From IMG/VR virus record IMGVR_UViG_2558309052_000002: 40,896 bases of DNA, one strand, 5' to 3'. The notes under the pieces are model-generated. The model did not search any database, had not been told where the DNA came from, and was given only the letters and a program-made list of their open reading frames with translations. A program made the position numbers and the translations under genes. How positions within the stretch are numbered: position 1 is the first letter of the stretch; each line of letters starts with the position of its first letter. Shown here piece by piece: positions 1,540-32,844 of this stretch. This DNA comes from a virus. Lineage: Duplodnaviria; Heunggongvirae; Uroviricota; Caudoviricetes.

Positions 1540-2112
1540 TTACATTTCAGGTTGCGTTATGACAGTCCCAACAGGGTGATAGCGGTAGATCGTTGACAGT
1601 CCAATATCATAGATAATTGCCAGCCGCTTTCTGTCATACCCTTTCTGGAGCAATCTTGCGATCTGCTCATGCTGCTCCTTCGTCAGTTTCGGGCGACGTC
1701 CTCCAACTCTTCCTTGTGCTCGCGCAGCAGCCAGTCCAGCCAGCGTGCGCTCAACTATCAGTTCACGCTCCATTTCTGCCAGTGCACCCATCATATGAAA
1801 AAAGAACCTTCCCATCGGAGTGCTGGTATCGATTGAATCCGTCAGACTGCGAAAATTGACACCTTTTGCGCGTAGCTCTTCTGTGAGAGCAATGAGGTGT
1901 TTCATTCTTCTACCCAACCGATCCAGCTTCCAGACCACCAATGTATCCCCTCTTTTAAGGCACTTTAAAGCGCGTTTCAGGCCTGGTCGTTCCGACTTGG
2001 TTCCGCTCATTTTGTCCTCAAAAATCTGTTCACATCCTGCGCACATTAATGCATTGCGTTGCAAATCTGTGTTTTGGTCATTTGTTGACACACGTATGTA
2101 GCCAATCAGCAT
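1540..2112 (-). CDS. Gin/Pin/Hin-family serine DNA invertase
   Basis: 190-aa product from ATG at 2112 (RBS AGGGAG upstream): MLIGYIRVSTNDQNTDLQRNAL...GDTLVVWKLDRLGR...RSLTDSIDTSTPMGRFFFHMMGALAEMEREL..., co-linear with Mu Gin. The longer ORF in the track (to 2241) is an upstream frame extension. Confidence 0.93.
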   Translation of the reverse strand: MLIGYIRVSTNDQNTDLQRNALMCAGCEQIFEDKMSGTKSERPGLKRALKCLKRGDTLVVWKLDRLGRRMKHLIALTEELRAKGVNFRSLTDSIDTSTPMGRFFFHMMGALAEMERELIVERTLAGLAAARAQGRVGGRRPKLTKEQHEQIARLLQKGYDRKRLAIIYDIGLSTIYRYHPVGTVITQPEM

Positions 2113-2180
2113 TAAAAATACTCCCTTTTGAGTGGTTAAAGTACTGAGATAATGTGGGGAGGATTTGAGAGATAAACGTT

Positions 2181-2696
2181 GGTTTAGGAGAAGGCTCGGC
2201 GCTACCCGTTGGTGTGCCTGTTCCGTGGCCCACCGCCACACCGCCAGCAGGCTGGTTAAAGTGCGACGGGCGCGCCTTTACAAAAGAACAATATCCTGTT
2301 CTGGCCAGAGTCTACCCGACCCTCCGTCTTCCCGATTTACGCGGTGAGTTTATCCGTGGATGGGACGACGGGCGCAAAGTTGATACAGGACGTAAGTTGC
2401 TGTCCGCACAAGGGGCAACGCTGTTAAGAACAGCAATGCTGGATTATTATAACCAGGACACTACGGGAACCTCGGGGATAGTCGGCATGGGATTCAACAA
2501 TGAAGATTCCATTACAGACCTTCGTGAGGGCAGCTTTAAAATGCCGGACGGGACAACATTCAGCGATCCTGTCGTGGCAATGTCAGACAATGGTATGCAG
2601 GCTACTATTCTGACCTCTATCAGAAGCGGGTATGCGAAGGGTATCACTGTCAGACCCCGTAGCATTGCACTTAATTACATTGTGAGGGCAGTTTAA
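2181..2696 (+). CDS. alternative tail-fibre C-terminal variable cassette (A), currently silent
   Basis: Frame open from 2169 with no credible own start. Begins with the shared LGEGSALPVGVPVPWPTATPPAGWLKCDGRAFTKEQ block, then a unique region, ending ...RPRSIALNYIVRAV. Confidence 0.7.
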   Translation, partial: GLGEGSALPVGVPVPWPTATPPAGWLKCDGRAFTKEQYPVLARVYPTLRLPDLRGEFIRGWDDGRKVDTGRKLLSAQGATLLRTAMLDYYNQDTTGTSGIVGMGFNNEDSITDLREGSFKMPDGTTFSDPVVAMSDNGMQATILTSIRSGYAKGITVRPRSIALNYIVRAV

Positions 2697-3310
2697 TGAG
2701 TAACACTGCAGTTCTGGATGAAAACGGTATCGCCACTGTAGCGGGCGATATCACTGTATATCACTATGACGAGGAAACCCGGGAATACACCTCATCCTCT
2801 GTGGAGTATCTCGCCCTTGGGGTGGGTACTCCGGCACATTCGTGCGCCGATGCACCGCCGGAAGCAATTTCGGGTTACGTGGTTTGCCGGACTGCCACGC
2901 TGAACGGGTGGGAGCATGTGCCTGATCACCGCGGCGAGACGGTATACAGCACGGAGAACGGTAACCCCGTTCTGATTACCCAACCGGGTGATTACCCGGC
3001 GGACACCACCACAAAACAGCCAGCCACGCCATGGGATACCTGGAACGGTGAGGCGTGGGTAACCGATACTGAACGGCAGCGAGCCGCAGAACTGGAGGTT
3101 GCCAGACAGCAACGCCAGCAACGGGTGAAACAGGCGATGGCGTCCGTCGATCTTATCAACCTCAAACTGCGTGCTGGTCGCAGTCTGAAACCAGAAGAAA
3201 CGGCAAAACTGAACGCCGTGCTGGATTATATCGACGAGCTGAACGCACTGGATATCAGCAAGGCACCTGAAATCAGCTGGCCGGAAGCGCCACTGGCGCT
3301 TGCCGGCTGA
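2696..3310 (+). CDS. tail fibre assembly protein (chaperone) paired with cassette A
   Basis: 204 aa. ATG overlaps the cassette A stop (TAATG). Resembles phage tail-fibre assembly proteins (Mu U / P2 G type). Confidence 0.75.
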   Translation: MSNTAVLDENGIATVAGDITVYHYDEETREYTSSSVEYLALGVGTPAHSCADAPPEAISGYVVCRTATLNGWEHVPDHRGETVYSTENGNPVLITQPGDYPADTTTKQPATPWDTWNGEAWVTDTERQRAAELEVARQQRQQRVKQAMASVDLINLKLRAGRSLKPEETAKLNAVLDYIDELNALDISKAPEISWPEAPLALAG

Positions 3311-3316
3311 ACGGTA

Positions 3317-3778
3317 TCACGCCGCCCTCACGATATAGTTAAATGCGATATTGCGGGGGCGAGCTGATACATAAGCCCACCAGTCATATCTTTGTGCACC
3401 TTTAGAGGATGCATCAAATATCCACTTTTTGCCATTTAAGACCCCCAGTTGATTAGAGGTTAAAGCGTCACCAAATCCGTATTGTGTAGAGCCGAGCGAA
3501 CTGATATCTCCGGTATCATTATCATCAAAACCGGATACGATAGTCCCTTCCTGAAATGAAAGTAGCGCACGCCCGGTATCAACCTTGCGACCACCGTCCC
3601 ATCCACGGATAAACTCACCGCGCAAATCGGGAAGACGGAGGGTCGGGTAGACTCTGACCAGAACAGGATATTGTTCTTTGGTGAACGTAGCTCCGTTGCA
3701 CTGTAACCAGCCTGCTGGCGGTGTGGCGGTGGGCCATGGAACCGGTACACCAACAGGCAATGCAGAGCCTTCCCCCAA
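3317..3778 (-). CDS. alternative tail-fibre C-terminal variable cassette (B), silent, no ATG
   Basis: 153-codon frame beginning TTG-GGG-GAA (LGEGSALPVG...) 10 nt after the expressed fibre stop; ends ...RPRNIAFNYIVRAA. Diverged homology block (about 85% to A/C). No downstream assembly gene. Confidence 0.6.
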   Translation of the reverse strand: MGEGSALPVGVPVPWPTATPPAGWLQCNGATFTKEQYPVLVRVYPTLRLPDLRGEFIRGWDGGRKVDTGRALLSFQEGTIVSGFDDNDTGDISSLGSTQYGFGDALTSNQLGVLNGKKWIFDASSKGAQRYDWWAYVSARPRNIAFNYIVRAA

Positions 3779-3788
3779 ACCAACGTTT

Positions 3789-5042
3789 CTATGCCGCCCT
3801 TACGATGTAATTAAACGCAATGTTACGGGGACGAATGGTCACATAATTAACCCCATCGCCTCGCGAAGGACCTGCAAATGAAAAACGGGAGAATCCAGGT
3901 TGGTTGTCAACGATTTGGTCATAGTTATTGATTGAATGACCAGACCCAATGTCAAAATTACCTGCGTAATGAGAAAAACTTGTACCATCCTGCCGTGAAA
4001 GCAGATCGCGCCCTGTATCCACTTTTCGCCCGTCGTCCCATCCACGGATAAACTCACCGCGTAAATCGGGAAGACGGAGGGTCGGGTAGACTCTGGCCAG
4101 AACAGGATATTGTTCTTTTGTAAAGGCGCGCCCGTCGCACTTTAACCAGCCTGCTGGCGGTGTGGCAGTGGGCCACGGAACAGGTACACCAACGGGCAGC
4201 GCCGAGCCTTCCCCCAAACCAAGGTAATTGAGGACATCTTTTATACTGCCCTTAGCGATAATAGCGCGACCAATAGCTGTAAGGGTTGCCAGCTCTGCGC
4301 GGTCTGCTCCGGTAAAATAAGGCAACCGATCTGCTGCAGTGGCAAGTCCTGCCAGAGCAGTGAGCGTGGCATCTGCCGGTTGTTTTCCGTTTGCCAGATC
4401 GTATGCAGCCTTGACCGCTTTCGGTGTGGCGGCCAGTATTTCAGACGTGCTGTTGATGGCACTGCTCAATTGTACGGTGCCTTTTGCCGTCAGCGAGGCA
4501 GCAGGCACTCCCGTTATCTGACTCCACGGGTGAGTGTGGCTGACGGGCGCCTTGCCGGCTGCAAGGTCGTATGCAGCCTTGACCGCCTTCGGCGTGGCAG
4601 CCTCAGTTTCTGATTGACTGTCCGTGGCGCTGCTCAGTTGTACGGTGCCTTTTGCCGTCAGTGAAGCCGCAGGCACTCCCGTTATCTGACTCCACGGGTG
4701 AGTGTGGCTGGCAGGCGCCTTGCCGGCTGCCAGGTCGTATGCAGCCTTGACCGCTTTTGGTGTGGCGGCCAGCGTTTCAGAGGTGCTGTTGGTGGCACTG
4801 CTCAGTTGGGTGAACCCCTTAGCTGTCAGTGTCGCGTCCGGGTGGTTACGGGAACGTACGTGTTCAGCCAGTGACTGTGCGGCTTCCTCCGTTTTCTTCT
4901 TCAGCCATTTCGTCCTGTTTGCCAGTTGCCGGGGGGCTCGATTTGATATCCCGTCTGCACCACCCAGAACCGGATCTGATGTCTCCAGTTGATAGATATT
5001 TTCTTCCCACTTTTCTGTTTCATTCAGGTTTCCCATAATCAA
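3789..5042 (-). CDS. tail fibre protein (constant N-terminal part fused to variable cassette C)
   Basis: 417 aa. ATGA overlap with the upstream gpI-like gene; internal 56-aa tail-fibre repeats; C-terminal 140 aa is homology block C plus a unique tip ending ...NIAFNYIVRAA. Confidence 0.9.
   Translation of the reverse strand: MIMGNLNETEKWEENIYQLETSDPVLGGADGISNRAPRQLANRTKWLKKKTEEAAQSLAEHVRSRNHPDATLTAKGFTQLSSATNSTSETLAATPKAVKAAYDLAAGKAPASHTHPWSQITGVPAASLTAKGTVQLSSATDSQSETEAATPKAVKAAYDLAAGKAPVSHTHPWSQITGVPAASLTAKGTVQLSSAINSTSEILAATPKAVKAAYDLANGKQPADATLTALAGLATAADRLPYFTGADRAELATLTAIGRAIIAKGSIKDVLNYLGLGEGSALPVGVPVPWPTATPPAGWLKCDGRAFTKEQYPVLARVYPTLRLPDLRGEFIRGWDDGRKVDTGRDLLSRQDGTSFSHYAGNFDIGSGHSINNYDQIVDNQPGFSRFSFAGPSRGDGVNYVTIRPRNIAFNYIVRAA
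4388..4829 (-). repeat. in-frame tandem repeats (168 bp, about 2.6 copies) inside the tail fibre gene
   Basis: Protein repeat LTAKG(F/T)(T/V)QLSSA.(N/D)S.SE..AATPKAVKAAYDLA.GKAP.SHTHPWSQITGVPAAS occurs twice in full and once in part. Shadow ORFs on + at 4393 and 4729 (336 nt apart) share ARSYAALTAFGVAAS. Confidence 0.85.
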
Positions 5043-26416: not shown

Positions 26417-26767
26417 TTAAAGCCCCATCGCAACAGCCAGGCAGACCGCTGCAACAATCAGTGCACGGCGGATTAACGCAGCAGAAAACACCAGGTGAAG
26501 GCCGGTCTGTACCGGGAAACGCCCTTCAGCCATCAGCCTGTCGTCATGTTTCAGGTACTGACCGGGACGGGCTTTGGGGAAGAGCGAACGGTCAAGCCAG
26601 TAACCCAGCACTGCTGCCAGCGTGATGAGTGCCAGCTTGTAGATCACAACAGGCAGCTGCTGTGGTGAGACCAGAGCGATGGTGCCCAGCAACAGCACTG
26701 AGGTCAGCAGCCAGCCGCTGAGGCGAGGTTTTTTAACAGGGGGAATGAATTTTTTCAGGTTTTTCAT
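26417..26767 (-). CDS. putative holin (three predicted TM helices)
   Basis: From the ATG at 26767 (RBS AAGGAG): MKNLKKFIPPVKKPRLSGWLLTSVLLLGTIALV... with three hydrophobic segments; first gene of the lysis cassette. Confidence 0.6.
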   Translation of the reverse strand: MKNLKKFIPPVKKPRLSGWLLTSVLLLGTIALVSPQQLPVVIYKLALITLAAVLGYWLDRSLFPKARPGQYLKHDDRLMAEGRFPVQTGLHLVFSAALIRRALIVAAVCLAVAMGL

Positions 26768-26786
26768 GTGTGTCTCCTTATCTGGT

Positions 26787-26825
26787 GGAGACAGCATCAC
26801 AAATACAGGGCGCGAAGGATTTTAA
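26787..26825 (-). promoter_or_regulatory. late-promoter-like motif (copy 1), upstream of the lysis cassette
   Basis: TTTAAAATC-N23-CTGTCTCC on the minus strand, 19 nt upstream of the holin ATG; C-rich tract upstream; the CTGTCTCC box can pair with the RBS region (GGAGACA). Confidence 0.55.
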
Positions 26826-26962
26826 AGCGCGTTAAGAGAGCCGGGGATACGGGATGTGCAGGATAAACGATGAATTATTCACAGAGGAGAATACGATATG
26901 ACGCAGACACTGAATCCGGTCATCACTGTCACCGTGTCCGGTCCTGTGGGCAGCGGTAAAAG

Positions 26963-26990
26963 TTACCGTACTGGCGCGAATAGAGGTAAG
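26963..26990. repeat. 28-bp direct repeat, left copy, flanking the IS66-family element
   Basis: TTACCGTACTGGCGCGAATAGAGGTAAG, identical to 29514-29541. The last 5 nt overlap the IS terminus GTAAG. Confidence 0.9.
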
Positions 26991-27015
26991 CGTCAACGGA
27001 GCACCGTATTGACGC

Positions 27016-28629
27016 TTATTTATTGGTGAGTACTACGTTCCATGGCAGGAGTTCGTCAACTCGGTTGGAAGGCCATTCCGGCAGTACGCTCAGGATATGG
27101 CGCAGATACGCTTCCGGATCGATACCGTTCAGACGGCAGGTGCCGATCAGCCCGTACAACAGTGCTCCACGCTCGCCGCCGTGATCGCTGCCAAAGAACA
27201 TAAAGTTTTTCTTTCCGAGACAGACTGCACGAAGCGCTCTTTCCGCAGCATTATTATCCGCCTCCGCCAGACCGTCATCACTGTAATAACAGAGGGCATC
27301 CCACTGATTCAGTACATAGCTGAACGCTTCGCCCAGTCTGGATTTTTTCGACAGCGTACCATTCTTCTCCACCATCCATTCATGCAGCGACGTCAGTAAC
27401 ACTTTGCTTCGCTGCTGCCTGACGGCAAGACGCTCTGACTCCGGTAATCCCCGTATTTCATCCTCGATGGCGTACAGTTCACTGATTCGCTTCAGGGCTT
27501 CTTCTGCCGTCGCACTTTTGCTGCTGATGTATACATCGTGGATTTTTCGCCGGGCATGGGCCCAGCACGCAACTTCTGTCAGTGCACCACCTTCACGTTC
27601 TGCACTGAACAACCTGTCGTAACCTGTGAACGCATCCGCCTGCAGGATACCCCGGAAGGGGCGGAGGTGTTGCTCCGGGTGTTTCCCCTGCCGGTTCGGC
27701 GAGTACGCGAACCAGACCGCTGGAGGAGATGACGAACCCACATTGCGATCATCCCGGACATACGTCCAGATACGCCCTGTTTTCGCCTTTTTCTGACCCG
27801 GTGCCAGTACCTTTACCGGTGTGTCATCAGTGTGAACCTTGCGGGTGTTCATTACATAACGGTACAGGGCATCATTCACCGGTGTCATTAACTGGCAGCA
27901 CGCGTCAACCCAGTTGGAGAGTAAGGCCCGGCTCAGTTCGACACCCTGGCGGGCAAAGATTTCACTCTGACGATACAGTGGCAGATGTTCGCAGTATTTT
28001 CCCGTTAACACGCGGGCAAGTAATCCGGGGCCCGCGATACCACGCTCTATCGGGCGGGACGGCGCCGGTGCTTCAACAATACAGTCACATTTTGTACAGG
28101 CTTTTTTTACCCGTTCTGTGCGGATCACTTTCAGGGCACTGCTCACCAGTTCCAGCTGTTCAGCGCTGACTTCCCCCAGATAATCCAGCTCACCGCCACA
28201 CTCCGGGCAACAGCTTTCTTCTGGCTCCAGGCGGTGTATTTCACGGGGAAGGTGTGCCGGTAACGGACGACGATGGCGCGACTGTCGCAACTGGCGGGGA
28301 ACCTGAGGATCGTCTTCCCGCCCACTGTAACGATCGCTGTCCTGTTCACGTTGTTTCAGCAGAGCCTCAGCCAGTTCAACTTCACGACGCAGTTTTTCAG
28401 AACGGGTACCGAACAGCATCCGGCGCAGTTTTTCTATCTGAGCCCGCAGATGTTCTATTTCCCGTTCATCTTCTTCGATCTTTTCTTCGGCACGTGTCAG
28501 TGCAGAGCGCAGGAAGGCTTCCGTCTCTTCAACCAGACTCAGTTGCTGGTCTTTCTGACGGAGGGCTTCAGCCTGCTCAGAGAGCAACCTTTCCAGCTCT
28601 GCGATGCGAATGAGGTATTTCTGACTCAT
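27016..28629 (-). CDS. IS66-family transposase (TnpC / orf3)
   Basis: 537 aa, N-terminal coiled coil, CxxC...CxxC zinc-ribbon region and DDE-type core; typical IS66 transposase architecture. Confidence 0.9.
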   Translation of the reverse strand: MSQKYLIRIAELERLLSEQAEALRQKDQQLSLVEETEAFLRSALTRAEEKIEEDEREIEHLRAQIEKLRRMLFGTRSEKLRREVELAEALLKQREQDSDRYSGREDDPQVPRQLRQSRHRRPLPAHLPREIHRLEPEESCCPECGGELDYLGEVSAEQLELVSSALKVIRTERVKKACTKCDCIVEAPAPSRPIERGIAGPGLLARVLTGKYCEHLPLYRQSEIFARQGVELSRALLSNWVDACCQLMTPVNDALYRYVMNTRKVHTDDTPVKVLAPGQKKAKTGRIWTYVRDDRNVGSSSPPAVWFAYSPNRQGKHPEQHLRPFRGILQADAFTGYDRLFSAEREGGALTEVACWAHARRKIHDVYISSKSATAEEALKRISELYAIEDEIRGLPESERLAVRQQRSKVLLTSLHEWMVEKNGTLSKKSRLGEAFSYVLNQWDALCYYSDDGLAEADNNAAERALRAVCLGKKNFMFFGSDHGGERGALLYGLIGTCRLNGIDPEAYLRHILSVLPEWPSNRVDELLPWNVVLTNK

Positions 28630-28659
28630 GACCGTTTTTATAATGCGGTCAGGAGTTTT

Positions 28660-29010
28660 TTACAACATTGTCAGTGAGTTACGGCTGGATGTTTTTGGCT
28701 GACGCCAGTCCAGCTTATCGAGGAGCATTGCCAGTTGCGAGCGGGTAATGGATACCTTGCCGTCACGTACCGCAGGCCAGATAAACTGGCCTTCCTCCAG
28801 GCGTTTGGTGAACAGGCACAGACCATCAGCATCAGCCCAAAGAATTTTGACGGTGTCACCCCGTCGGCCACGGAAGATAAACAGGTGACCGGAGAAGGGA
28901 TTATCATTCAGCACATGTTGTACCTGTTCTCCCAGTCCGTTGAAGGATTTACGCATATCGGTAACGCCGGCAACGAGCCAGATACGGGTACCTGATGGGA
29001 GTGAGATCAT
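28660..29010 (-). CDS. IS66-family accessory protein TnpB (orf2)
   Basis: 116 aa, MISLPSGTRIWLVAGVTDMRKSFNGLGEQV...; recognisable IS66 Orf2 family. Confidence 0.9.
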   Translation of the reverse strand: MISLPSGTRIWLVAGVTDMRKSFNGLGEQVQHVLNDNPFSGHLFIFRGRRGDTVKILWADADGLCLFTKRLEEGQFIWPAVRDGKVSITRSQLAMLLDKLDWRQPKTSSRNSLTML

Positions 29011-29432
29011 CTTCCCCTCCCGGTCAGTTCACGGATCAACACTGTGAGCAGCTCTGGCGATGGATTTTCCAGCGTCATGTTACCGTGACGGAATTCCACC
29101 TTGCAGGAACTGGCACTGACTCTGGTCTGAGTGGAAGTGGATAAAGACGGCGCAATGGCCGCCACAGGTTCTTTCTGCTCATCCGGCGTTATTTCTACAG
29201 GTAATAATTCAACGCCAGTGTCAGAAGAGGTCGTTACCGGAAGACGCCGCGAAACACGCCCTTCGTTCTGCCAGAGCCTGAGCCATTTGAAAATAACATT
29301 ATCATTGACGCCATTTTCACGTGCAATCTGTGCAACACAAGCTCCAGGTTGTGATGCCAGTTCCACCATACGAAGTTTGAATTCATTCGAATAGTTTTTA
29401 CGAGGTTCTTTTCGCCAGTCCTGTAATTCCAT
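29007..29432 (-). CDS. IS66-family accessory protein TnpA (orf1)
   Basis: 141 aa, helix-turn-helix-like N-terminus (MVELASQPGACVAQIARENGVNDNVIFKWLR); overlaps orf2 by 4 nt. Confidence 0.85.
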   Translation of the reverse strand: MELQDWRKEPRKNYSNEFKLRMVELASQPGACVAQIARENGVNDNVIFKWLRLWQNEGRVSRRLPVTTSSDTGVELLPVEITPDEQKEPVAAIAPSLSTSTQTRVSASSCKVEFRHGNMTLENPSPELLTVLIRELTGRGR

Positions 29433-29513
29433 ACTTAGATGTCCGTCTATATCAGATGGGCGTCTAAGTTACCAATTCTCGTCTGATGGCTACATACGGC
29501 GGTCAGTTTACGC

Positions 29514-29541
29514 TTACCGTACTGGCGCGAATAGAGGTAAG
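29514..29541. repeat. 28-bp direct repeat, right copy, flanking the IS66-family element
   Basis: TTACCGTACTGGCGCGAATAGAGGTAAG, identical to 26963-26990. The first 4 nt overlap the IS terminus ...CTTAC. Confidence 0.9.
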
Positions 29542-30179
29542 TGGTGAAACAGGAATTCGGAAACAGCGTCATTGTCGACGCCGCAGACGTGGACGGTGAG
29601 CGCCGTATGAGTGGGGATGATCTGAGCACATGGCAGAAACCACGGGCTGGCACAGTGATCAGGCTGGAGGAATACACGGGACAGGGCCTGTTGTCATACG
29701 GCGAGGAGCGTATCTGTCGGACGAATGAGCTGCTGGATGTTATATGCCCCACGGGCCGGCAACCCTGGATACTGCCCGATGCACTGCATGCCACCATTGC
29801 GGCACTGATGACAGTTTACGATCAGGAGCTGCTCATGAAGGAGTTACGTAAACTCACTGGTCAGTCAACAGAATGTTGTTCGTCCCCGAAGTACGGCAAA
29901 CAGGAACACATCCCGATTAACCAGCCTCCCCGGTTCTTCGACGAATACCTTCTGACACCGGAAAATAAAGCTGAGCATGAAGAGATCAAAGCGGCGTTGT
30001 TCCGGGAAATCAGGAAGATTGCTGAAATGCAACTGGAGGGCGGGCTGGACAGAGTGATGGCGAGAGGAGAATGGGCATCGCTGTTTGAAAGAGTTTCCCC
30101 GGAATTACTTCCCCTCGCACTGGCTATCGGGATTATGCAGACAGCGGATAAACCTCACTTACGTTCATTAAACACGTAA
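29541..30179 (+). CDS. hypothetical protein
   Basis: 212-codon ORF from GTG at 29541 (alternative ATG at 29607); no family I recognise. Start lies inside the right flanking repeat of the IS, so its native 5' context is disrupted. Confidence 0.45.
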   Translation: MVKQEFGNSVIVDAADVDGERRMSGDDLSTWQKPRAGTVIRLEEYTGQGLLSYGEERICRTNELLDVICPTGRQPWILPDALHATIAALMTVYDQELLMKELRKLTGQSTECCSSPKYGKQEHIPINQPPRFFDEYLLTPENKAEHEEIKAALFREIRKIAEMQLEGGLDRVMARGEWASLFERVSPELLPLALAIGIMQTADKPHLRSLNT

Positions 30180-30559
30180 CGCATAATCCGGGATACGCAT
30201 TCAGCGATGACTGCATTTTCACCGGTTTTTACTGCATCCAGAAGTGACTCTTTAAATGGTACGGGCCGGGGCTGCAGAAAGGTCGGCATGGCATTGAGCA
30301 GACAGAGCGTTTTTTCCGTGAGGACGACATCAGCCGCTCCCACAGCCAGCAACTGAGAGTAACGAATATAGCTGTTATCCCGAAGCCATATCAGCGTATC
30401 AATAAAACACCGGCACTTTTTCTGGTCGTGATCAACCTGGTCCGGGATATCGAAAAAACCAGAATAAATCAAAACCTGAGGTGCCGGATGCGTGTTCAGT
30501 AATCGGCAGAATATTTTGCCGGTGAGTACATAAAAATCATCATTTAAGGAGTGCATCAT
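30155..30559 (-). CDS. hypothetical protein
   Basis: 134-aa ORF convergent with the previous ORF (25-nt overlap); weak GGGGA RBS; no recognisable motif. Confidence 0.35.
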   Translation of the reverse strand: MMHSLNDDFYVLTGKIFCRLLNTHPAPQVLIYSGFFDIPDQVDHDQKKCRCFIDTLIWLRDNSYIRYSQLLAVGAADVVLTEKTLCLLNAMPTFLQPRPVPFKESLLDAVKTGENAVIAECVSRIMRYVFNERK

Positions 30560-30773
30560 GAATCCCCGATTAACGTTAACAGAACATCAGCGCCGTGCTG
30601 AAGCAGTGAACAATGTTCTGGAAGATATTATCCGGTTATACCGCGGAGAACTGAGTGTCTGTCGTGCCGCTTTTCATTTTCAGGGAATACAAAAGCAGTT
30701 TGATACTTCTGTTTTTGCAGAAGGTATTACTTATGCCCTGGACCGGATAAGGTCAGAAAATCGCCCCGGATAA
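30558..30773 (+). CDS. hypothetical small protein
   Basis: 71-aa ORF with a strong RBS (AAGGAG, 6 nt spacing); predicted helical; no recognisable family. Confidence 0.45.
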   Translation: MNPRLTLTEHQRRAEAVNNVLEDIIRLYRGELSVCRAAFHFQGIQKQFDTSVFAEGITYALDRIRSENRPG

Positions 30774-30827
30774 TCCCTAAACCACATTAACAGAAATCCC
30801 GCCATCCCTGCCGCATCATGAAAGAAC

Positions 30828-30859
30828 GACCAGCCCGGCACCCGAAAGCCGGGCTGGTC
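30828..30859. other. perfect 12-bp stem-loop
   Basis: GACCAGCCCGGC-acccgaaa-GCCGGGCTGGTC, between the 71-aa ORF and the methyltransferase gene; no U-tract on the + side, weak U-rich tract on the - side. Confidence 0.5.
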
Positions 30860-30963
30860 ATCGCCCCACAGGAATGCGCTGTGAGCCGACCAAGGTTCAG
30901 TCAGTCTCGCGAGACCTGACCAGACTGCCATATTTTTTAATAATTGTAAAAGGCTTGCAGATT

Positions 30964-31728
30964 ATGAAAATGCAGACATTACCCATCGTGCCGTGGATTG
31001 GTGGCAAACGCCGCCTTGCAAAACACATTCTGCCGCTGTTTCCGGCGCATGAATGTTATGTGGAGCCGTTTTGTGGGGCAGCAGCGCTCTATTTTCTTAA
31101 GACACCCGGCAAGATCGAAGTCATCAATGATATCAACGGTGAACTGGTGAATCTGTACCGGGTGGTAAAGCATCACCTGGAAGAATTTGTCCGCCAGTTC
31201 AAATGGGCGCTGGTCAGCCGTCAGATCTACAAATGGCTGCAGATCACCCCGGAAGAAACACTGACGGATATCCAGCGTGCGGCACGGTTCTACTACCTTC
31301 AGAAGCAGGCGTTTGGCGGCAAGGTGGCAGAGCACAGCTTCGGTACCTCCACCACATCCCCGCCACGCTTCAACCTGCTACGTATTGAAGAAGAACTGTC
31401 AGCGGCACACCTGCGGCTTTCCAGAACAGTCATAGAACACATGGACTGGCAACAGTGCATTGAGCGTTATGATCGTCCGCACACGCTGTTCTACTGCGAC
31501 CCACCGTACCTGGGTACGGAAGGCTATGGTGTGGATTTTCCTGAAGGGAACTACTCGCGGCTGGCAGAGCTGGCCCGGTGCATCAGAGGAAAAATGATAA
31601 TTTCGGTGAACGACATCCCGCAGATGCGCGAGGTGTTCACTGGACTGAACATACAGACAGTGAATATCAACTACAGTCTGGCGGGTAAACCCACGCCGCG
31701 CCGTGAACTGCTAATCTGCAACTTCTGA
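30964..31728 (+). CDS. DNA adenine methyltransferase (Dam-family, N6-adenine)
   Basis: From the ATG at 30964: MKMQTLPIVPWIGGKRRLAKHILPLFPAHECYVEPFCGAAALYF... (AdoMet-binding region) and ...FYCDPPYLGTEGYG... (DPPY catalytic motif), co-linear with E. coli Dam. Target sequence cannot be read from the protein. Confidence 0.85.
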   Translation: MKMQTLPIVPWIGGKRRLAKHILPLFPAHECYVEPFCGAAALYFLKTPGKIEVINDINGELVNLYRVVKHHLEEFVRQFKWALVSRQIYKWLQITPEETLTDIQRAARFYYLQKQAFGGKVAEHSFGTSTTSPPRFNLLRIEEELSAAHLRLSRTVIEHMDWQQCIERYDRPHTLFYCDPPYLGTEGYGVDFPEGNYSRLAELARCIRGKMIISVNDIPQMREVFTGLNIQTVNINYSLAGKPTPRRELLICNF

Positions 31729-31734
31729 AACAAA

Positions 31735-31759
31735 ACCGGAAAGCACAATGCTTTCCGGT
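31735..31759 (-). terminator. putative terminator downstream of the repressor gene
   Basis: Hairpin ACCGGAAAGC-acaat-GCTTTCCGGT; on the minus strand it is followed by TTTGTTTC. Confidence 0.45.
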
Positions 31760-31844
31760 AAACCAAACAACTTCCACTATGTCACTGGCGATGTTTTCTG
31801 AAAGCATCCAGATCAACCACCTGTCCTTTGTGTCCGGGTCAGTA

Positions 31845-32201
31845 TCAGCCTGCGATTTTTCCTGGTTTTGGCTGAGTATAGAATCGCCCAATCTCAAGAA
31901 ATGAGCGTTGTTGGTCTGGTGTCATGTCGTCAAAAGTATCTATTAGTTTTTGTTTTTCTGGGGAAATTTGATTCTGGTTTCTAGTCATACCATCTGTGCT
32001 CATTCCAGTGAGCAACCAATTTACATCAACATTAAACTCTTGATGCATCTTTAACAGAAACTCCCCTCCAGGCATCGCCTTTCCATTTTCAATCTGACTG
32101 ATACCACCATTAGAAATACCTAAACGAGCTGCAAATTCTCTCTGGTTCAACCCTGCTTTCTTCCTCACAGAAATAACGCGCTCTCCTATATCTTTGCTCA
32201 T
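31845..32201 (-). CDS. CI-like phage repressor (XRE-family helix-turn-helix)
   Basis: 118 aa, MSKDIGERVISVRKKAGLNQREFAARLGISNGGISQIENGK... canonical XRE HTH; divergent from the early operon; operator half-site overlaps its start codon. Confidence 0.85.
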   Translation of the reverse strand: MSKDIGERVISVRKKAGLNQREFAARLGISNGGISQIENGKAMPGGEFLLKMHQEFNVDVNWLLTGMSTDGMTRNQNQISPEKQKLIDTFDDMTPDQQRSFLEIGRFYTQPKPGKIAG

Positions 32202-32218
32202 AAAAGTGAATCTCTATC

Positions 32219-32248
32219 TTGATATGCTCATAATTATGAGCAATAATC
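32219..32248 (+). promoter_or_regulatory. early promoter candidate (TTGATA-N18-ATAATC)
   Basis: -35-like TTGATA (32219-32224) and -10-like ATAATC (32243-32248); the 18-nt spacer is exactly the operator palindrome; sits between the repressor and the early operon. Confidence 0.5.
32225..32242. promoter_or_regulatory. operator: perfect 18-bp palindrome
   Basis: TGCTCATAATTATGAGCA is its own reverse complement; an additional half-site TGCTCATAA lies at 32195-32203 across the repressor start codon. Confidence 0.7.
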
Positions 32249-32294
32249 TAACACATATAAGGCAAACATCATTGCATCAACAAAGGAGACAACG

Positions 32295-32483
32295 ATGACT
32301 GCAGAACAAGTCAAAGCTCTCTTCCGCCAGCGCGGGATCACTTTCACCCGCTGGGCAGAAGAAAACGGCTACAACCGCAATGAGGTATACCGCGTTCTCA
32401 ACGGGCAGACCAAAGCCCGTTACGGTAAATCCCATGAAATCGCCGTGAAGTTGGGACTGAAATCAACAGCTCAGGCGGCCTAA
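32295..32483 (+). CDS. Ner-like / Cro-like small DNA-binding regulator
   Basis: 62 aa, first gene of the early operon (RBS AGGAG); ...FTRWAEENGYNRNEVYRVLNGQ...HEIAVKLGL... resembles the Ner/Nlp family pattern. Confidence 0.6.
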   Translation: MTAEQVKALFRQRGITFTRWAEENGYNRNEVYRVLNGQTKARYGKSHEIAVKLGLKSTAQAA

Positions 32484-32529
32484 ATATTTTGAGTCTTTGT
32501 AAAAGGTTATCACATATCGCAAAAGAGGT

Positions 32530-32844
32530 ATGCAGATGAGTAAGACGAATGTTTCAAGCTCCGGCAGTCGCATCCTCCGGGTACTCAAAGCGCTGCGCGG
32601 TCATGCCCTGAACGGTATTTCTAACGGTGAACTGGCGACAGCACTGCACGAGTCACCGGCAAACATCAACCGGGCACTCAACACCCTCATTGAAGAAGGG
32701 CTGGCTCTGAAACTGGAGAACGGACGTTTTGCACCGGGCATCCAGTTACTGCAGATCGCCATGGCCCACAGTAACGAGATGGCACGTGCACAGGATCGTA
32801 TTAACGAAATTAACCAACGTGTCATTTCAGGTAGTCGTTTGTAA
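32530..32844 (+). CDS. hypothetical DNA-binding protein (winged-helix-like)
   Basis: 104 aa, RILRVLKALRGHALNGISNGELATALHESPANINRALNTLIEEGLA suggests a winged-helix HTH; no counterpart between ner and A in canonical Mu. Confidence 0.4.
   Translation: MQMSKTNVSSSGSRILRVLKALRGHALNGISNGELATALHESPANINRALNTLIEEGLALKLENGRFAPGIQLLQIAMAHSNEMARAQDRINEINQRVISGSRL

What the first reader, a model, noticed from the sequence alone, without database searches (positions are those of the whole stretch)
29541..30963. Uncharacterised three-ORF module between the IS element and the methyltransferase gene
Three ORFs (212, 134 and 71 aa) with no recognisable family sit between the lysis promoter and the immunity region, the place where Mu-like and P2-like prophages tend to carry lysogen-expressed accessory genes such as exclusion or anti-defence functions. 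The 134-aa and 71-aa ORFs are divergent with overlapping start codons, and only the 71-aa ORF has a strong RBS. A perfect 12-bp hairpin (30828-30859) closes the module. With Dam next door this may be a defence or counter-defence island; I cannot assign function from sequence.
Basis: inference. Interest (0 to 1): 0.6.

Follow-up and report, generated by a model that had tools for sequence, protein, structure and literature searches.

The report
Head-to-head phage accessory gene cassette
The three ORFs are real, conserved prophage genes of unknown function: two form a widespread two-gene phage cassette whose genes sit start-to-start on opposite strands, and the third is a small P-loop gene that the insertion sequence has cut in two in this window.

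Summary
The window is a BcepMu-type transposable prophage of E. coli next to aroA.

- **ORF1.** The "212-aa ORF" is residues 31-242 of a 242-aa gene. ISEc23 has split it. The first 23 codons, with a Walker A motif GPVGSGKS and a strong RBS, lie left of the IS at 26898-26966.
- **ORF2.** It is a confidently modelled winged-helix protein (pLDDT 91). It belongs to a large, acidic, Pfam-less phage family (phrog_2266).
- **ORF3.** It belongs to a small, basic partner family.
- **Pairing.** The two genes lie start-to-start (CATG overlap or 1-4 nt apart) in Serratia BcepMu-like prophages, P2-like phages (gpA-gpQ defence hotspot) and about 56 of 80 other viral contigs. The winged-helix gene is usually the only antisense gene in a co-directional array. 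Each Shine-Dalgarno lies inside the other gene, so the two mRNAs must be complementary over at least 22 nt.
- **Hairpin.** It is real, but it is a terminator for the ORF2 strand, upstream of the cassette. It does not close ORF3.

There is no match to known defence models. Function is untested. I favour an either/or (lysogen versus lytic) expression switch with a protein-antagonist pair.

The parts
26898..26966 (+). 5' fragment of ORF1 (native codons 1-23, MTQTLNPVITVTVSGPVGSGKSY, with Walker A GPVGSGKS). Its RBS GAGGAG lies just upstream. The IS cuts it off from the rest of the gene.
   Evidence: The IS-free allele is L001 5936-6664.
26986..29517 (-). ISEc23 (IS66 family; tnpA 29007-29432, tnpB 28660-29010, tnpC 27016-28629; ends GTAAGCG...CGCTTAC), inserted inside ORF1.
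26967..26985 (.). Left copy of a 19-bp direct repeat, CGTACTGGCGCGAATAGAG, flanking the IS. The right copy is at 29518-29536. This is not the 8-bp target duplication that the same IS has in strain S931B.
   Evidence: The junction is absent from 5426 complete E. coli genomes.
29541..30179 (+). 3' fragment of ORF1 (native residues 31-242). It holds the rest of the small alpha/beta region, a low-complexity linker, and a C-terminal helical domain (about residues 177-228) shared with an 89-aa Serratia protein.
   Evidence: dN/dS is 0.19-0.32 between alleles.
30155..30559 (-). ORF2: a winged-helix protein with a C-terminal helical hairpin (phrog_2266). The probable start is the second ATG, at 30556. 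Its 3' end overlaps ORF1 by 25 nt.
30558..30773 (+). ORF3: a 71-aa helical partner protein (phrog_4490), homologous to the partner family of other carriers (phrog_25421).
30546..30567 (.). Obligatory overlap of the two mRNAs. The ORF3 SD (AAGGAG, 30546-30551) lies inside ORF2 codons. The ORF2 SD (GGGGA on the - strand, 30563-30567) lies inside ORF3 codons. Both start codons lie between them.
   Evidence: Read from the sequence. The same layout occurs in Serratia, P2-like and other loci.
30828..30859 (-). 12-bp perfect GC-rich hairpin followed by GTTCTTTC on the - strand. It looks like an intrinsic terminator for leftward transcription, placed upstream of the ORF2 unit.
30964..31728 (+). Dam-type N6-adenine DNA methyltransferase. 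It is a neighbour, co-directional with ORF1 and ORF3.
31735..31759 (-). Terminator-like hairpin between the convergent Dam and repressor genes.

Best explanation
**What it is (shown).** The region is the accessory slot of a BcepMu-type prophage. It holds two separate things.

(a) ORF2 and ORF3 are one copy of a widespread two-gene phage cassette. One gene encodes an acidic winged-helix protein of about 135-150 aa. The other encodes a small, mostly basic helical partner of about 65-90 aa. The genes are head-to-head, with start codons overlapping or 1-4 nt apart. The winged-helix gene is typically the only antisense gene in an otherwise co-directional array. Here that array is ORF1, ORF3 and Dam. 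Elsewhere it is TerL-partner-gpW-portal, or gpA-DinI-partner.

(b) ORF1 is a lineage-specific gene under purifying selection. It has an N-terminal Walker A motif and a conserved C-terminal helical domain. In this window ISEc23 has inactivated it.

**How it most likely works (inferred).**
- Each gene's ribosome-binding site lies inside the other gene. The two mRNAs are therefore necessarily complementary over both translation-initiation regions, and their promoters must face each other.
- Expression should then be either/or. Transcription of the surrounding operon makes the partner and silences the winged-helix gene by collision and antisense pairing.
- When that operon is quiet, the winged-helix gene is expressed from its own promoter. 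That promoter would lie downstream of the conserved insulating terminator (30828-30859).
- The opposite charges and co-divergence of the two proteins suggest that the partner binds and neutralises the winged-helix protein, or the reverse.
- The biological output is probably an accessory, moron-type function acting in the cytoplasm, such as exclusion of other phages or control of a host or phage process. It has not been identified.
For: **Conservation and reality of the genes**
- 474 of 5426 complete E. coli genomes carry at least 80% of the region at about 99.9% identity.
- The identical trio is in phage PhiKM, a Bcepmuvirus.
- dN/dS is below 1 for all three genes.
- The Serratia trio is homologous: ORF2 53% identity, ORF3 31% (E 3e-11), ORF1 C-terminus 46% (E 2e-11).

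**ORF2 family and fold**
- 195 representatives at E<=1e-3 in the 50%-identity library.
- No Pfam hit.

**Head-to-head pairing**
- P2-like loci: 36 of 45 by script. The remaining 9 have no automatic start call; the one I re-checked, L051, has the same layout.
- About 56 of 80 loci of another subfamily have a 58-106-aa partner with a gap of -2 to +4 nt.
- 49 of 50 distinct partners form one BLAST-connected family.
- The ORF3 family is homologous to that family (hhalign probability 93.6%, E 2e-7).

**Embedded antisense layout**
- In 61 of 67 tight pairs the gene beyond the winged-helix 3' end is on the partner's strand. In 39 of 67 both flanks are.
- The flanking genes are TerL, TerS, portal, gpW, sheath and tube.
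- The SDs sit inside the partner's first codons in every subfamily.

**Other**
- The terminator on the winged-helix strand, upstream of the cassette, is conserved between E. coli and Serratia.
- Median pI is 5.1 for the winged-helix family and 8.2 for the partners.
- The ISEc23 split of ORF1 is shown.
Against: - No transcript data exist, and no convincing sigma-70 promoter was found for either gene. The direction and timing of expression are therefore inferred only.
- The winged-helix model lacks a clear helix 2, and the family is acidic. DNA binding is therefore doubtful, and the molecular activity is unknown.
- The P2-like partners are not significantly similar to the other partners.
- Some carriers have the winged-helix gene without a partner: 5 loci lie directly next to gpW. 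Nine others have a 152-aa partner instead. The pair is therefore not obligatory.
- Physical interaction between the two proteins could not be modelled.
- The ORF1 model has low confidence (pLDDT 46.5).
Confidence: 0.4

Rival explanations
1. One reading: an anti-phage defence or superinfection-exclusion system. The lysogen-expressed winged-helix protein senses or blocks an incoming phage. The partner, made from the phage's own lytic operon, acts as self-immunity. ORF1, a P-loop protein, would be an additional component in the enteric BcepMu lineage.
For: - The cassette occupies variable accessory slots, including the P2 gpA-gpQ hotspot where many defence systems reside (PMC9122126).
- It is inserted against the grain of late operons, as morons are.
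- ORF2 and ORF3 have lower G+C than the prophage.
- In a 2026 study most unknown genes tested from the analogous P4 hotspot proved defensive (PMC13586616).
Against: - No PADLOC hit for any family member.
- No nuclease, NTPase, TIR, SIR2 or membrane effector in the conserved pair.
- ORF1 is not part of the conserved cassette, and its P-loop region looks too small for a full NTPase fold.
- The P2 hotspot also holds non-defence cargo.
Confidence: 0.25
2. A counter-defence or host-takeover pair, analogous to acr-aca loci. The small basic partner, expressed with lytic operons, inhibits a host factor or immune system. The winged-helix protein regulates it or acts as its antidote.
For: - The partner is co-directional with lytic operons.
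- The pair combines a small partner protein with a winged-helix protein.
- Dam, itself a restriction-evasion function, is adjacent in the enteric BcepMu lineage.
Against: - The partners form one homologous family rather than a set of unrelated inhibitors.
- ORF2 matches no Pfam HTH model, and I did not compare it with the published Aca sequences directly.
- The genes are divergent, not in one operon.
- ORF2's helix-turn-helix is atypical and acidic.
Confidence: 0.15
3. A developmental regulator of the phage itself: a secondary switch that tunes late, lysis or replication gene expression or lysogeny maintenance, comparable to an immI-like second immunity region.
For: - In the BcepMu lineage it lies between the repressor/Dam and the late lysis promoter.
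- In other phages it lies at operon junctions.
- It has a winged-helix fold and facing-promoter geometry.
Against: - BcepMu itself and many relatives lack it.
- It moves between unrelated phage types and positions, which argues for a self-contained accessory function rather than an integrated core regulator.
Confidence: 0.15

Closest known systems
Phage morons (independent transcription units inserted between core genes, e.g. in HK97 and lambda late operons)
   Same: A small cassette inserted between core genes of several unrelated temperate phage types. It is on the opposite strand to its neighbours, has lower G+C, and has a terminator at its upstream edge.
   Different: Here only one of the two genes is antisense. 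The other reads with the host operon. No promoter could be identified.
Excludons and noncontiguous operons (an operon interrupted by an oppositely oriented gene, giving mutual antisense control). This comparison rests on my own knowledge.
   Same: One antisense gene is embedded in a co-directional gene array, and complementarity between the transcripts is unavoidable.
   Different: Those were described in Listeria and Staphylococcus chromosomes, not as a mobile phage cassette. Here the overlap is at the two translation-initiation regions. Transcripts were not measured.
Face-to-face promoter switches of P2/186 (Pe/Pc, pR/pL). This comparison rests on my own knowledge.
   Same: Divergent genes whose promoters must face each other, so that transcription of one interferes with the other.
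   Different: In P2/186 the promoters lie in an intergenic region and the proteins are the immunity repressor and Cox/Apl. Here there is no intergenic region and the proteins are unrelated.
Winged-helix proteins (MarR/PadR regulators, Z-alpha/Z-beta domains, kleisin and ScpB/MukE winged-helix domains)
   Different: There is no sequence-family match. Foldseek E-values are all above 0.03. Helix 2 is poorly defined, the family is acidic, and there is an extra conserved C-terminal helical hairpin.
Anti-phage systems of the P2 gpA-gpQ hotspot (old, tin, retrons, Rst systems; Rousset et al. 2022, PMC9122126)
   Same: P2-like homologues of the ORF2 pair lie in that hotspot, next to variable cargo.
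   Different: No homology to any modelled system. No phenotype is known.

Membership tests
Winged-helix fold | H1-B1-(H2)-H3-B2-wing-B3 topology, superposable on solved winged-helix domains | tested here: met
MarR/PadR/DUF2513-type wHTH transcription regulators | Significant match to the family's sequence profile | tested here: not met
   No Pfam hit for ORF2 or for 68 family members. The profile against PDB gives only non-significant hits: AspA 0.27, YjcQ 0.53.
MarR/PadR/DUF2513-type wHTH transcription regulators | DNA binding through a basic recognition helix or wing | not testable with these tools
   The family is acidic (median pI 5.1), and no basic residues are conserved in H3. This weighs against DNA binding but is not decisive.
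P-loop NTPase (ORF1) | Walker A motif GxxxxGK[ST] | tested here: met
   GPVGSGKS at residues 15-22 is invariant in the full-length alleles. Only the P-loop region gives weak hits. In the window the motif is separated from the rest of the gene by the IS.
P-loop NTPase (ORF1) | Walker B motif and a complete five-stranded alpha/beta core | tested here: inconclusive
   Candidates are VIVDAAD and VIRLEE. The model predicts only three strands at pLDDT 46.5. 182-aa alleles delete residues 52-124.
Known anti-phage defence systems (PADLOC-DB 2.0) | Match to any model of a known or candidate defence protein | tested here: not met
   ORF2, ORF3 and their homologues have none. ORF1 has only P-loop noise at E>=0.003.
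Type II toxin-antitoxin pair | Two small co-directional genes in one operon, with a recognisable toxin or antitoxin fold | tested here: not met
   The genes are divergent. There are no toxin or antitoxin Pfam hits.
acr-aca locus | Variable, unrelated small inhibitors upstream of a conserved Aca HTH in one operon | tested here: not met
   The partners form one homologous family. The genes are divergent. ORF2 matches no Pfam HTH model. It was not compared directly with published Aca families.
Intrinsic terminator closing ORF3 (+ strand) | GC-rich hairpin followed by a U-run on the transcribed strand | tested here: not met
   The hairpin is present, but on the + strand it is followed by AUCGCCCC. 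The T-run is on the - strand, as in Serratia.
IS66 family (ISEc23) | tnpA-tnpB-tnpC, GTAAGCG terminal repeats, 8-bp target duplication | tested here: inconclusive
   The genes and ends are met. The flanks show a 19-bp repeat plus two extra bases instead of 8 bp.
Excludon / noncontiguous operon | An antisense gene embedded in a co-directional array, with overlapping transcripts that control each other | tested here: inconclusive
   The gene layout is met, and the SDs lie within each other's coding sequence. Transcripts and regulation cannot be tested here.
T7 gp5.5/gp5.7 (lead from the phage Midge annotation) | Profile similarity to gp5.5 or gp5.7 | tested here: not met
   hhalign probability is 0.06% and 0.9%.

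The most novel reading that the evidence does not exclude
The winged-helix/partner cassette is a previously unrecognised class of prophage switch. A lysogen-expressed effector (the acidic winged-helix protein) is hard-wired, by obligatory antisense overlap of the two translation-initiation regions, to an antagonist that is made only when the phage's own lytic operon fires. The prophage could then act on invaders or on the host while sparing its own lytic growth.
Probability: 0.15. Interest if true: 0.75.

Novelty: new variant of a known kind. Interest (0 to 1): 0.5.

Why it matters
The pair is not an E. coli oddity. The winged-helix family has at least 195 representatives at 50% identity. The same start-to-start layout recurs in BcepMu-like, P2-like and lambda-head/myovirus-type prophages with G+C from 41% to 69%. 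The family has no Pfam entry, no literature mention that I could find, and no assigned function.

The layout is highly conserved and forces the two mRNAs to be antisense over both ribosome-binding sites. That makes it a compact, testable model for either/or gene control in prophages. It also points to a candidate accessory function, defence or counter-defence, carried in the pandemic ST131-type E. coli lineage.

For annotation, the practical points are:
- ORF1 here is an IS-disrupted pseudogene.
- ORF2 is missed in at least one deposited phage record (PhiKM).
- The hairpin belongs to the other strand.

Tried and rejected
1. **Curated libraries.** Pfam, NCBIfam and PADLOC gave nothing beyond P-loop noise for ORF1.
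2. **Solved structures by sequence.** Only non-significant hits, apart from a repetitive de novo design.
3. **Fold searches with the ORF2 model.** Only generic winged-helix matches. Nothing reached E<1e-3 in BFVD or PDB by Foldseek. afdb50 was unavailable.
4. **ORF1 structure.** pLDDT was 46.5, so no fold search was attempted.
5. **T7 gp5.5/5.7 similarity.** The Midge annotators suggested it. hhalign does not support it.
6. **'DUF2513' name.** One UniRef homologue carries it, but no Pfam match supports it.
7. **BcepMu gp13-20.** No homology to ORF1-3.
8. **ORF1 homologues near P2-like pairs.** None found, and Midge gp47 is unrelated.
9. **Promoters.** No convincing sigma-70 site for ORF2 or ORF3 in E. 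coli, Serratia or P2-like loci.
10. **Rfam.** No hit in 26700-32600.
11. **Literature.** Accession and PHROG identifiers returned nothing. The P2 hotspot papers do not mention this pair.
12. **Locus scans.** The genome-contig scan found only 3 loci. The broad alignment A5 was too diverse for a locus scan.
13. **First dN/dS run for ORF1.** It was misaligned by a 15-nt indel and was redone codon-aware.
Full report
**Context.** The window starts in the host gene aroA (1-1284). It then runs through a Mu-like prophage with BcepMu-type organisation.
- A Gin-like invertase and invertible tail-fibre segment lie at the left end. Late genes run leftward, ending with SLT endolysin and holin (26417-26767).
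- After the region under study come Dam, an HTH repressor on the minus strand (31845-32201), and rightward early genes: Ner-like, DUF3102, DDE transposase, MuB-like, Gam, GemA.
- About 99.9%-identical DNA covering at least 80% of 29400-31000 is present in 474 of 5426 complete E. coli genomes, many of them ST131-type.
- The isolated phage PhiKM, classified as Bcepmuvirus, carries identical proteins.

**The observation.** The three ORFs, the shared CATG at the ORF2/ORF3 starts, the AAGGAG in front of ORF3 and the 12-bp hairpin are all present. Four points need correcting.

1. *The 212-aa ORF is a fragment.* In IS-free genomes the gene is 242 aa (WP_000194951.1). It starts at an ATG that corresponds to window 26898, preceded by GAGGAG. 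Its N-terminus is MTQTLNPVITVTVSGPVGSGKSY..., a Walker A motif. ISEc23 (26986-29517) sits inside the gene.
2. *The ORF2 start.* ORF2 most likely starts at its second ATG (30556). Homologues begin MHS/MTS, and the GGGGA Shine-Dalgarno is 6 nt from that ATG. The two starts are then 1 nt apart, as in Serratia.
3. *The hairpin.* It has no U-run on the + strand. The T-run follows it on the - strand. The Serratia locus has a canonical terminator (14-bp stem plus TTTTTT) in the same position and orientation.
4. *PHROG membership.* All three proteins belong to PHROGs of unknown function.

**Are the genes real?** Yes.
- Between the 242-aa and 247-aa alleles, ORF1 has dN/dS 0.19-0.32.
- ORF2 and ORF3 give 0.2-0.6 on few substitutions.
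- All three have protein-level homologues in Serratia BcepMu-like prophages, in the same slot and orientation: holin | 89 aa | 139 aa | 73 aa | Dam.
- Identities are ORF2 53%; ORF3 31% over 55 residues (E 3e-11); and ORF1 residues 177-228 at 46% (E 2e-11).
- The N-terminal P-loop part of ORF1 is therefore an E. coli-lineage addition to a conserved C-terminal helical domain.
- ORF1 homologues were found only in E. coli. Alleles of 247, 182 and 141 aa all keep the Walker A motif.
- The ORF1 structure prediction failed (pLDDT 46.5). Only P-loop-level similarities exist.

**ORF2.**
- A profile search of 1.84 billion representative proteins found 195 relatives at E<=1e-3, mostly 125-150 aa. Conserved motifs are N-x3-F, FP-x-P, WL-x3-GYI, VLT-x-KGL-x2-L-x-A-x-P-x-SL and A-x-K-x-G. 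None matches Pfam.
- With this alignment AlphaFold gives a confident model (pLDDT 90.9, pTM 0.85): a winged-helix domain followed by a helical hairpin.
- The family is acidic (median pI 5.1), and helix 2 is not well formed. A classical DNA-binding regulator is therefore not assured.
- The T7 gp5.5/5.7 similarity mentioned in the phage Midge annotation is not reproduced.

**The pair is a family trait.**
- *P2-like phages and prophages.* In Midge, FSL SP-004, Klebsiella ST147-VIM1phi7.1 and the IMG/VR and GTDB loci, the ORF2 homologue (143 aa, about 31% identity) always has a 63-64-aa divergent ORF sharing CATG with its start.
- These pairs lie between gpQ and gpA/DinI. That is the cos-proximal hotspot described by Rousset et al. 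(PMC9122126), and variable cargo sits on either side.
- *A third subfamily.* It has 143 viral-contig hits, of which 80 were fetched. About 56 loci have a 58-106-aa partner with a gap of -2 to +4 nt. Nine have a 152-aa partner in the same position. A few have no partner.
- Forty-nine of 50 distinct partners form one BLAST-connected family, phrog_25421.
- The ORF3 family is homologous to that family (hhalign 93.6%, E 2e-7). The P2-like partners align in register but not significantly.
- The partners are mostly basic (median pI 8.2).

**Layout.**
- In these loci the flanking genes are TerL, TerS, gpW-like adaptor, portal, sheath or tube, and they lie on the partner's strand. In 61 of 67 tight pairs the gene beyond the winged-helix 3' end is convergent with it. 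In 39 of 67 both flanks are on the partner's strand.
- The winged-helix gene is therefore the single antisense gene embedded in an operon-like array that includes the partner. The window repeats this: ORF1(+), ORF2(-), ORF3(+), Dam(+).
- In every subfamily each gene's Shine-Dalgarno lies within the first codons of the other. In the window these are AAGGAG at 30546-30551 and GGGGA at 30563-30567.
- Any translatable mRNA of one gene must therefore be complementary to the initiation region of the other over at least 22 nt, and the promoters must face each other.
- BcepMu itself carries unrelated genes (gp18-20) in the slot. ORF2 and ORF3 have lower G+C than the prophage. Both facts fit a mobile accessory cassette.

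**Mechanism.**
- *Shown:* conservation, fold, pairing geometry, embedding, terminator orientation, charge complementarity, and IS disruption of ORF1.
- *Inferred:* either/or expression through transcriptional interference and antisense pairing. The winged-helix gene would be expressed on its own (probably in the lysogen), downstream of the insulating terminator. The partner would be expressed with the surrounding operon. The two proteins would act as an antagonist pair.
- No promoter could be identified, and nothing about the biological output is shown.
- Defence, counter-defence and phage-internal regulation remain open. None of the proteins matches PADLOC models. No paper in the library mentions the accessions or PHROG identifiers.

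**Verdict.** The finding is real but was partly misread. ORF1 is an IS-broken P-loop gene. ORF2 and ORF3 are one copy of a widespread, undescribed head-to-head cassette. The hairpin belongs to the ORF2 strand. The defence-island idea is plausible from location only. Interest is moderate. The unusual and strongly conserved gene geometry is the most notable point, and it can be tested directly.

Noticed in passing
window 26967-26985 and 29518-29536 (flanks of ISEc23, 26986-29517): The IS is flanked by a 19-bp direct repeat, CGTACTGGCGCGAATAGAG, not the 8-bp duplication seen for the same IS in strain S931B (GGATAAAC). Compared with the IS-free allele there is also an extra C before each copy and an extra T after the right copy, so the 28-mer TTACCGTACTGGCGCGAATAGAGGTAAG occurs twice. 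Recombination between two nearby insertions could explain the repeat, but not the extra bases. None of 5426 complete E. coli genomes has this junction.
   Followed up: partly
L002 (NZ_CP196521.1, strain S931B), corresponding to window about 26861-26869: An independent ISEc23 insertion lies about 120 bp away in the same prophage, in the holin-ORF1 intergenic region. The short region between the late lysis promoter and ORF1 has therefore been hit at least twice.
   Followed up: partly
window 1540-5042: A Gin-like serine invertase (1540-2241, -) lies next to oppositely oriented tail-fibre C-terminal (Collar domain) and tail-fibre assembly genes (2214-3310 + and 3317-5042 -). This looks like an invertible host-range segment at the prophage end, beside aroA (1-1284).
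   Followed up: no
L003 (phage PhiKM, PQ738613.1) 31077-31478: The ORF2 homologue (100% identical) is not annotated as a CDS in the deposited PhiKM record, although ORF1 and ORF3 are. The antisense gene is easy for annotators to miss.
   Followed up: yes
L022 (IMGVR_UViG_3300018478_000099) 3393-3794: In this E. coli-type variant the ORF2 reading frame contains a stop after 40 codons, while ORF3 and ORF1 stay open.
   Followed up: no
partner proteins in L078-L157 (alignment A11): Many small partners end in a cysteine-rich tail (for example PRCRCCRTS, CQCHCCRHC). ORF3 and the Serratia and P2-like partners lack it. This may be a metal-binding or modification site.
   Followed up: no
L122-L128, L131, L133 (about 3004): In nine loci the head-to-head partner of the winged-helix gene is a 152-aa protein (MKGSSEGLKQGFAYRAEGYW...) rather than the usual partner of about 75 aa.
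   Followed up: no
window 30561-30584 versus 30772-30795, and 30553-30562 versus 30813-30822: The sequence around the ORF3 start (GCATCATGAA / AATCCCCGATTAACGTTAACAGAA) is partly repeated just after the ORF3 stop. This includes an exact 10-mer, GCATCATGAA, that opens a 33-codon ORF running through the hairpin. A perfect palindrome, TTAACGTTAA, lies at 30569-30578. These may be chance.
   Followed up: no
window 30943-30970 (- strand): A promoter-like site (TTTTCA-16-TACAAT) points leftward from the Dam upstream region toward the hairpin terminator. It could give a short RNA of about 100 nt antisense to the Dam leader. This is a consensus match only.
   Followed up: no
L073 (JGI 3300027412) 2596-3357: One distant ORF2-family member lies two genes from an anti-Pycsar Apyc1-like metallo-beta-lactamase-fold gene, a known counter-defence function, in a metagenomic phage-like contig.
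   Followed up: no
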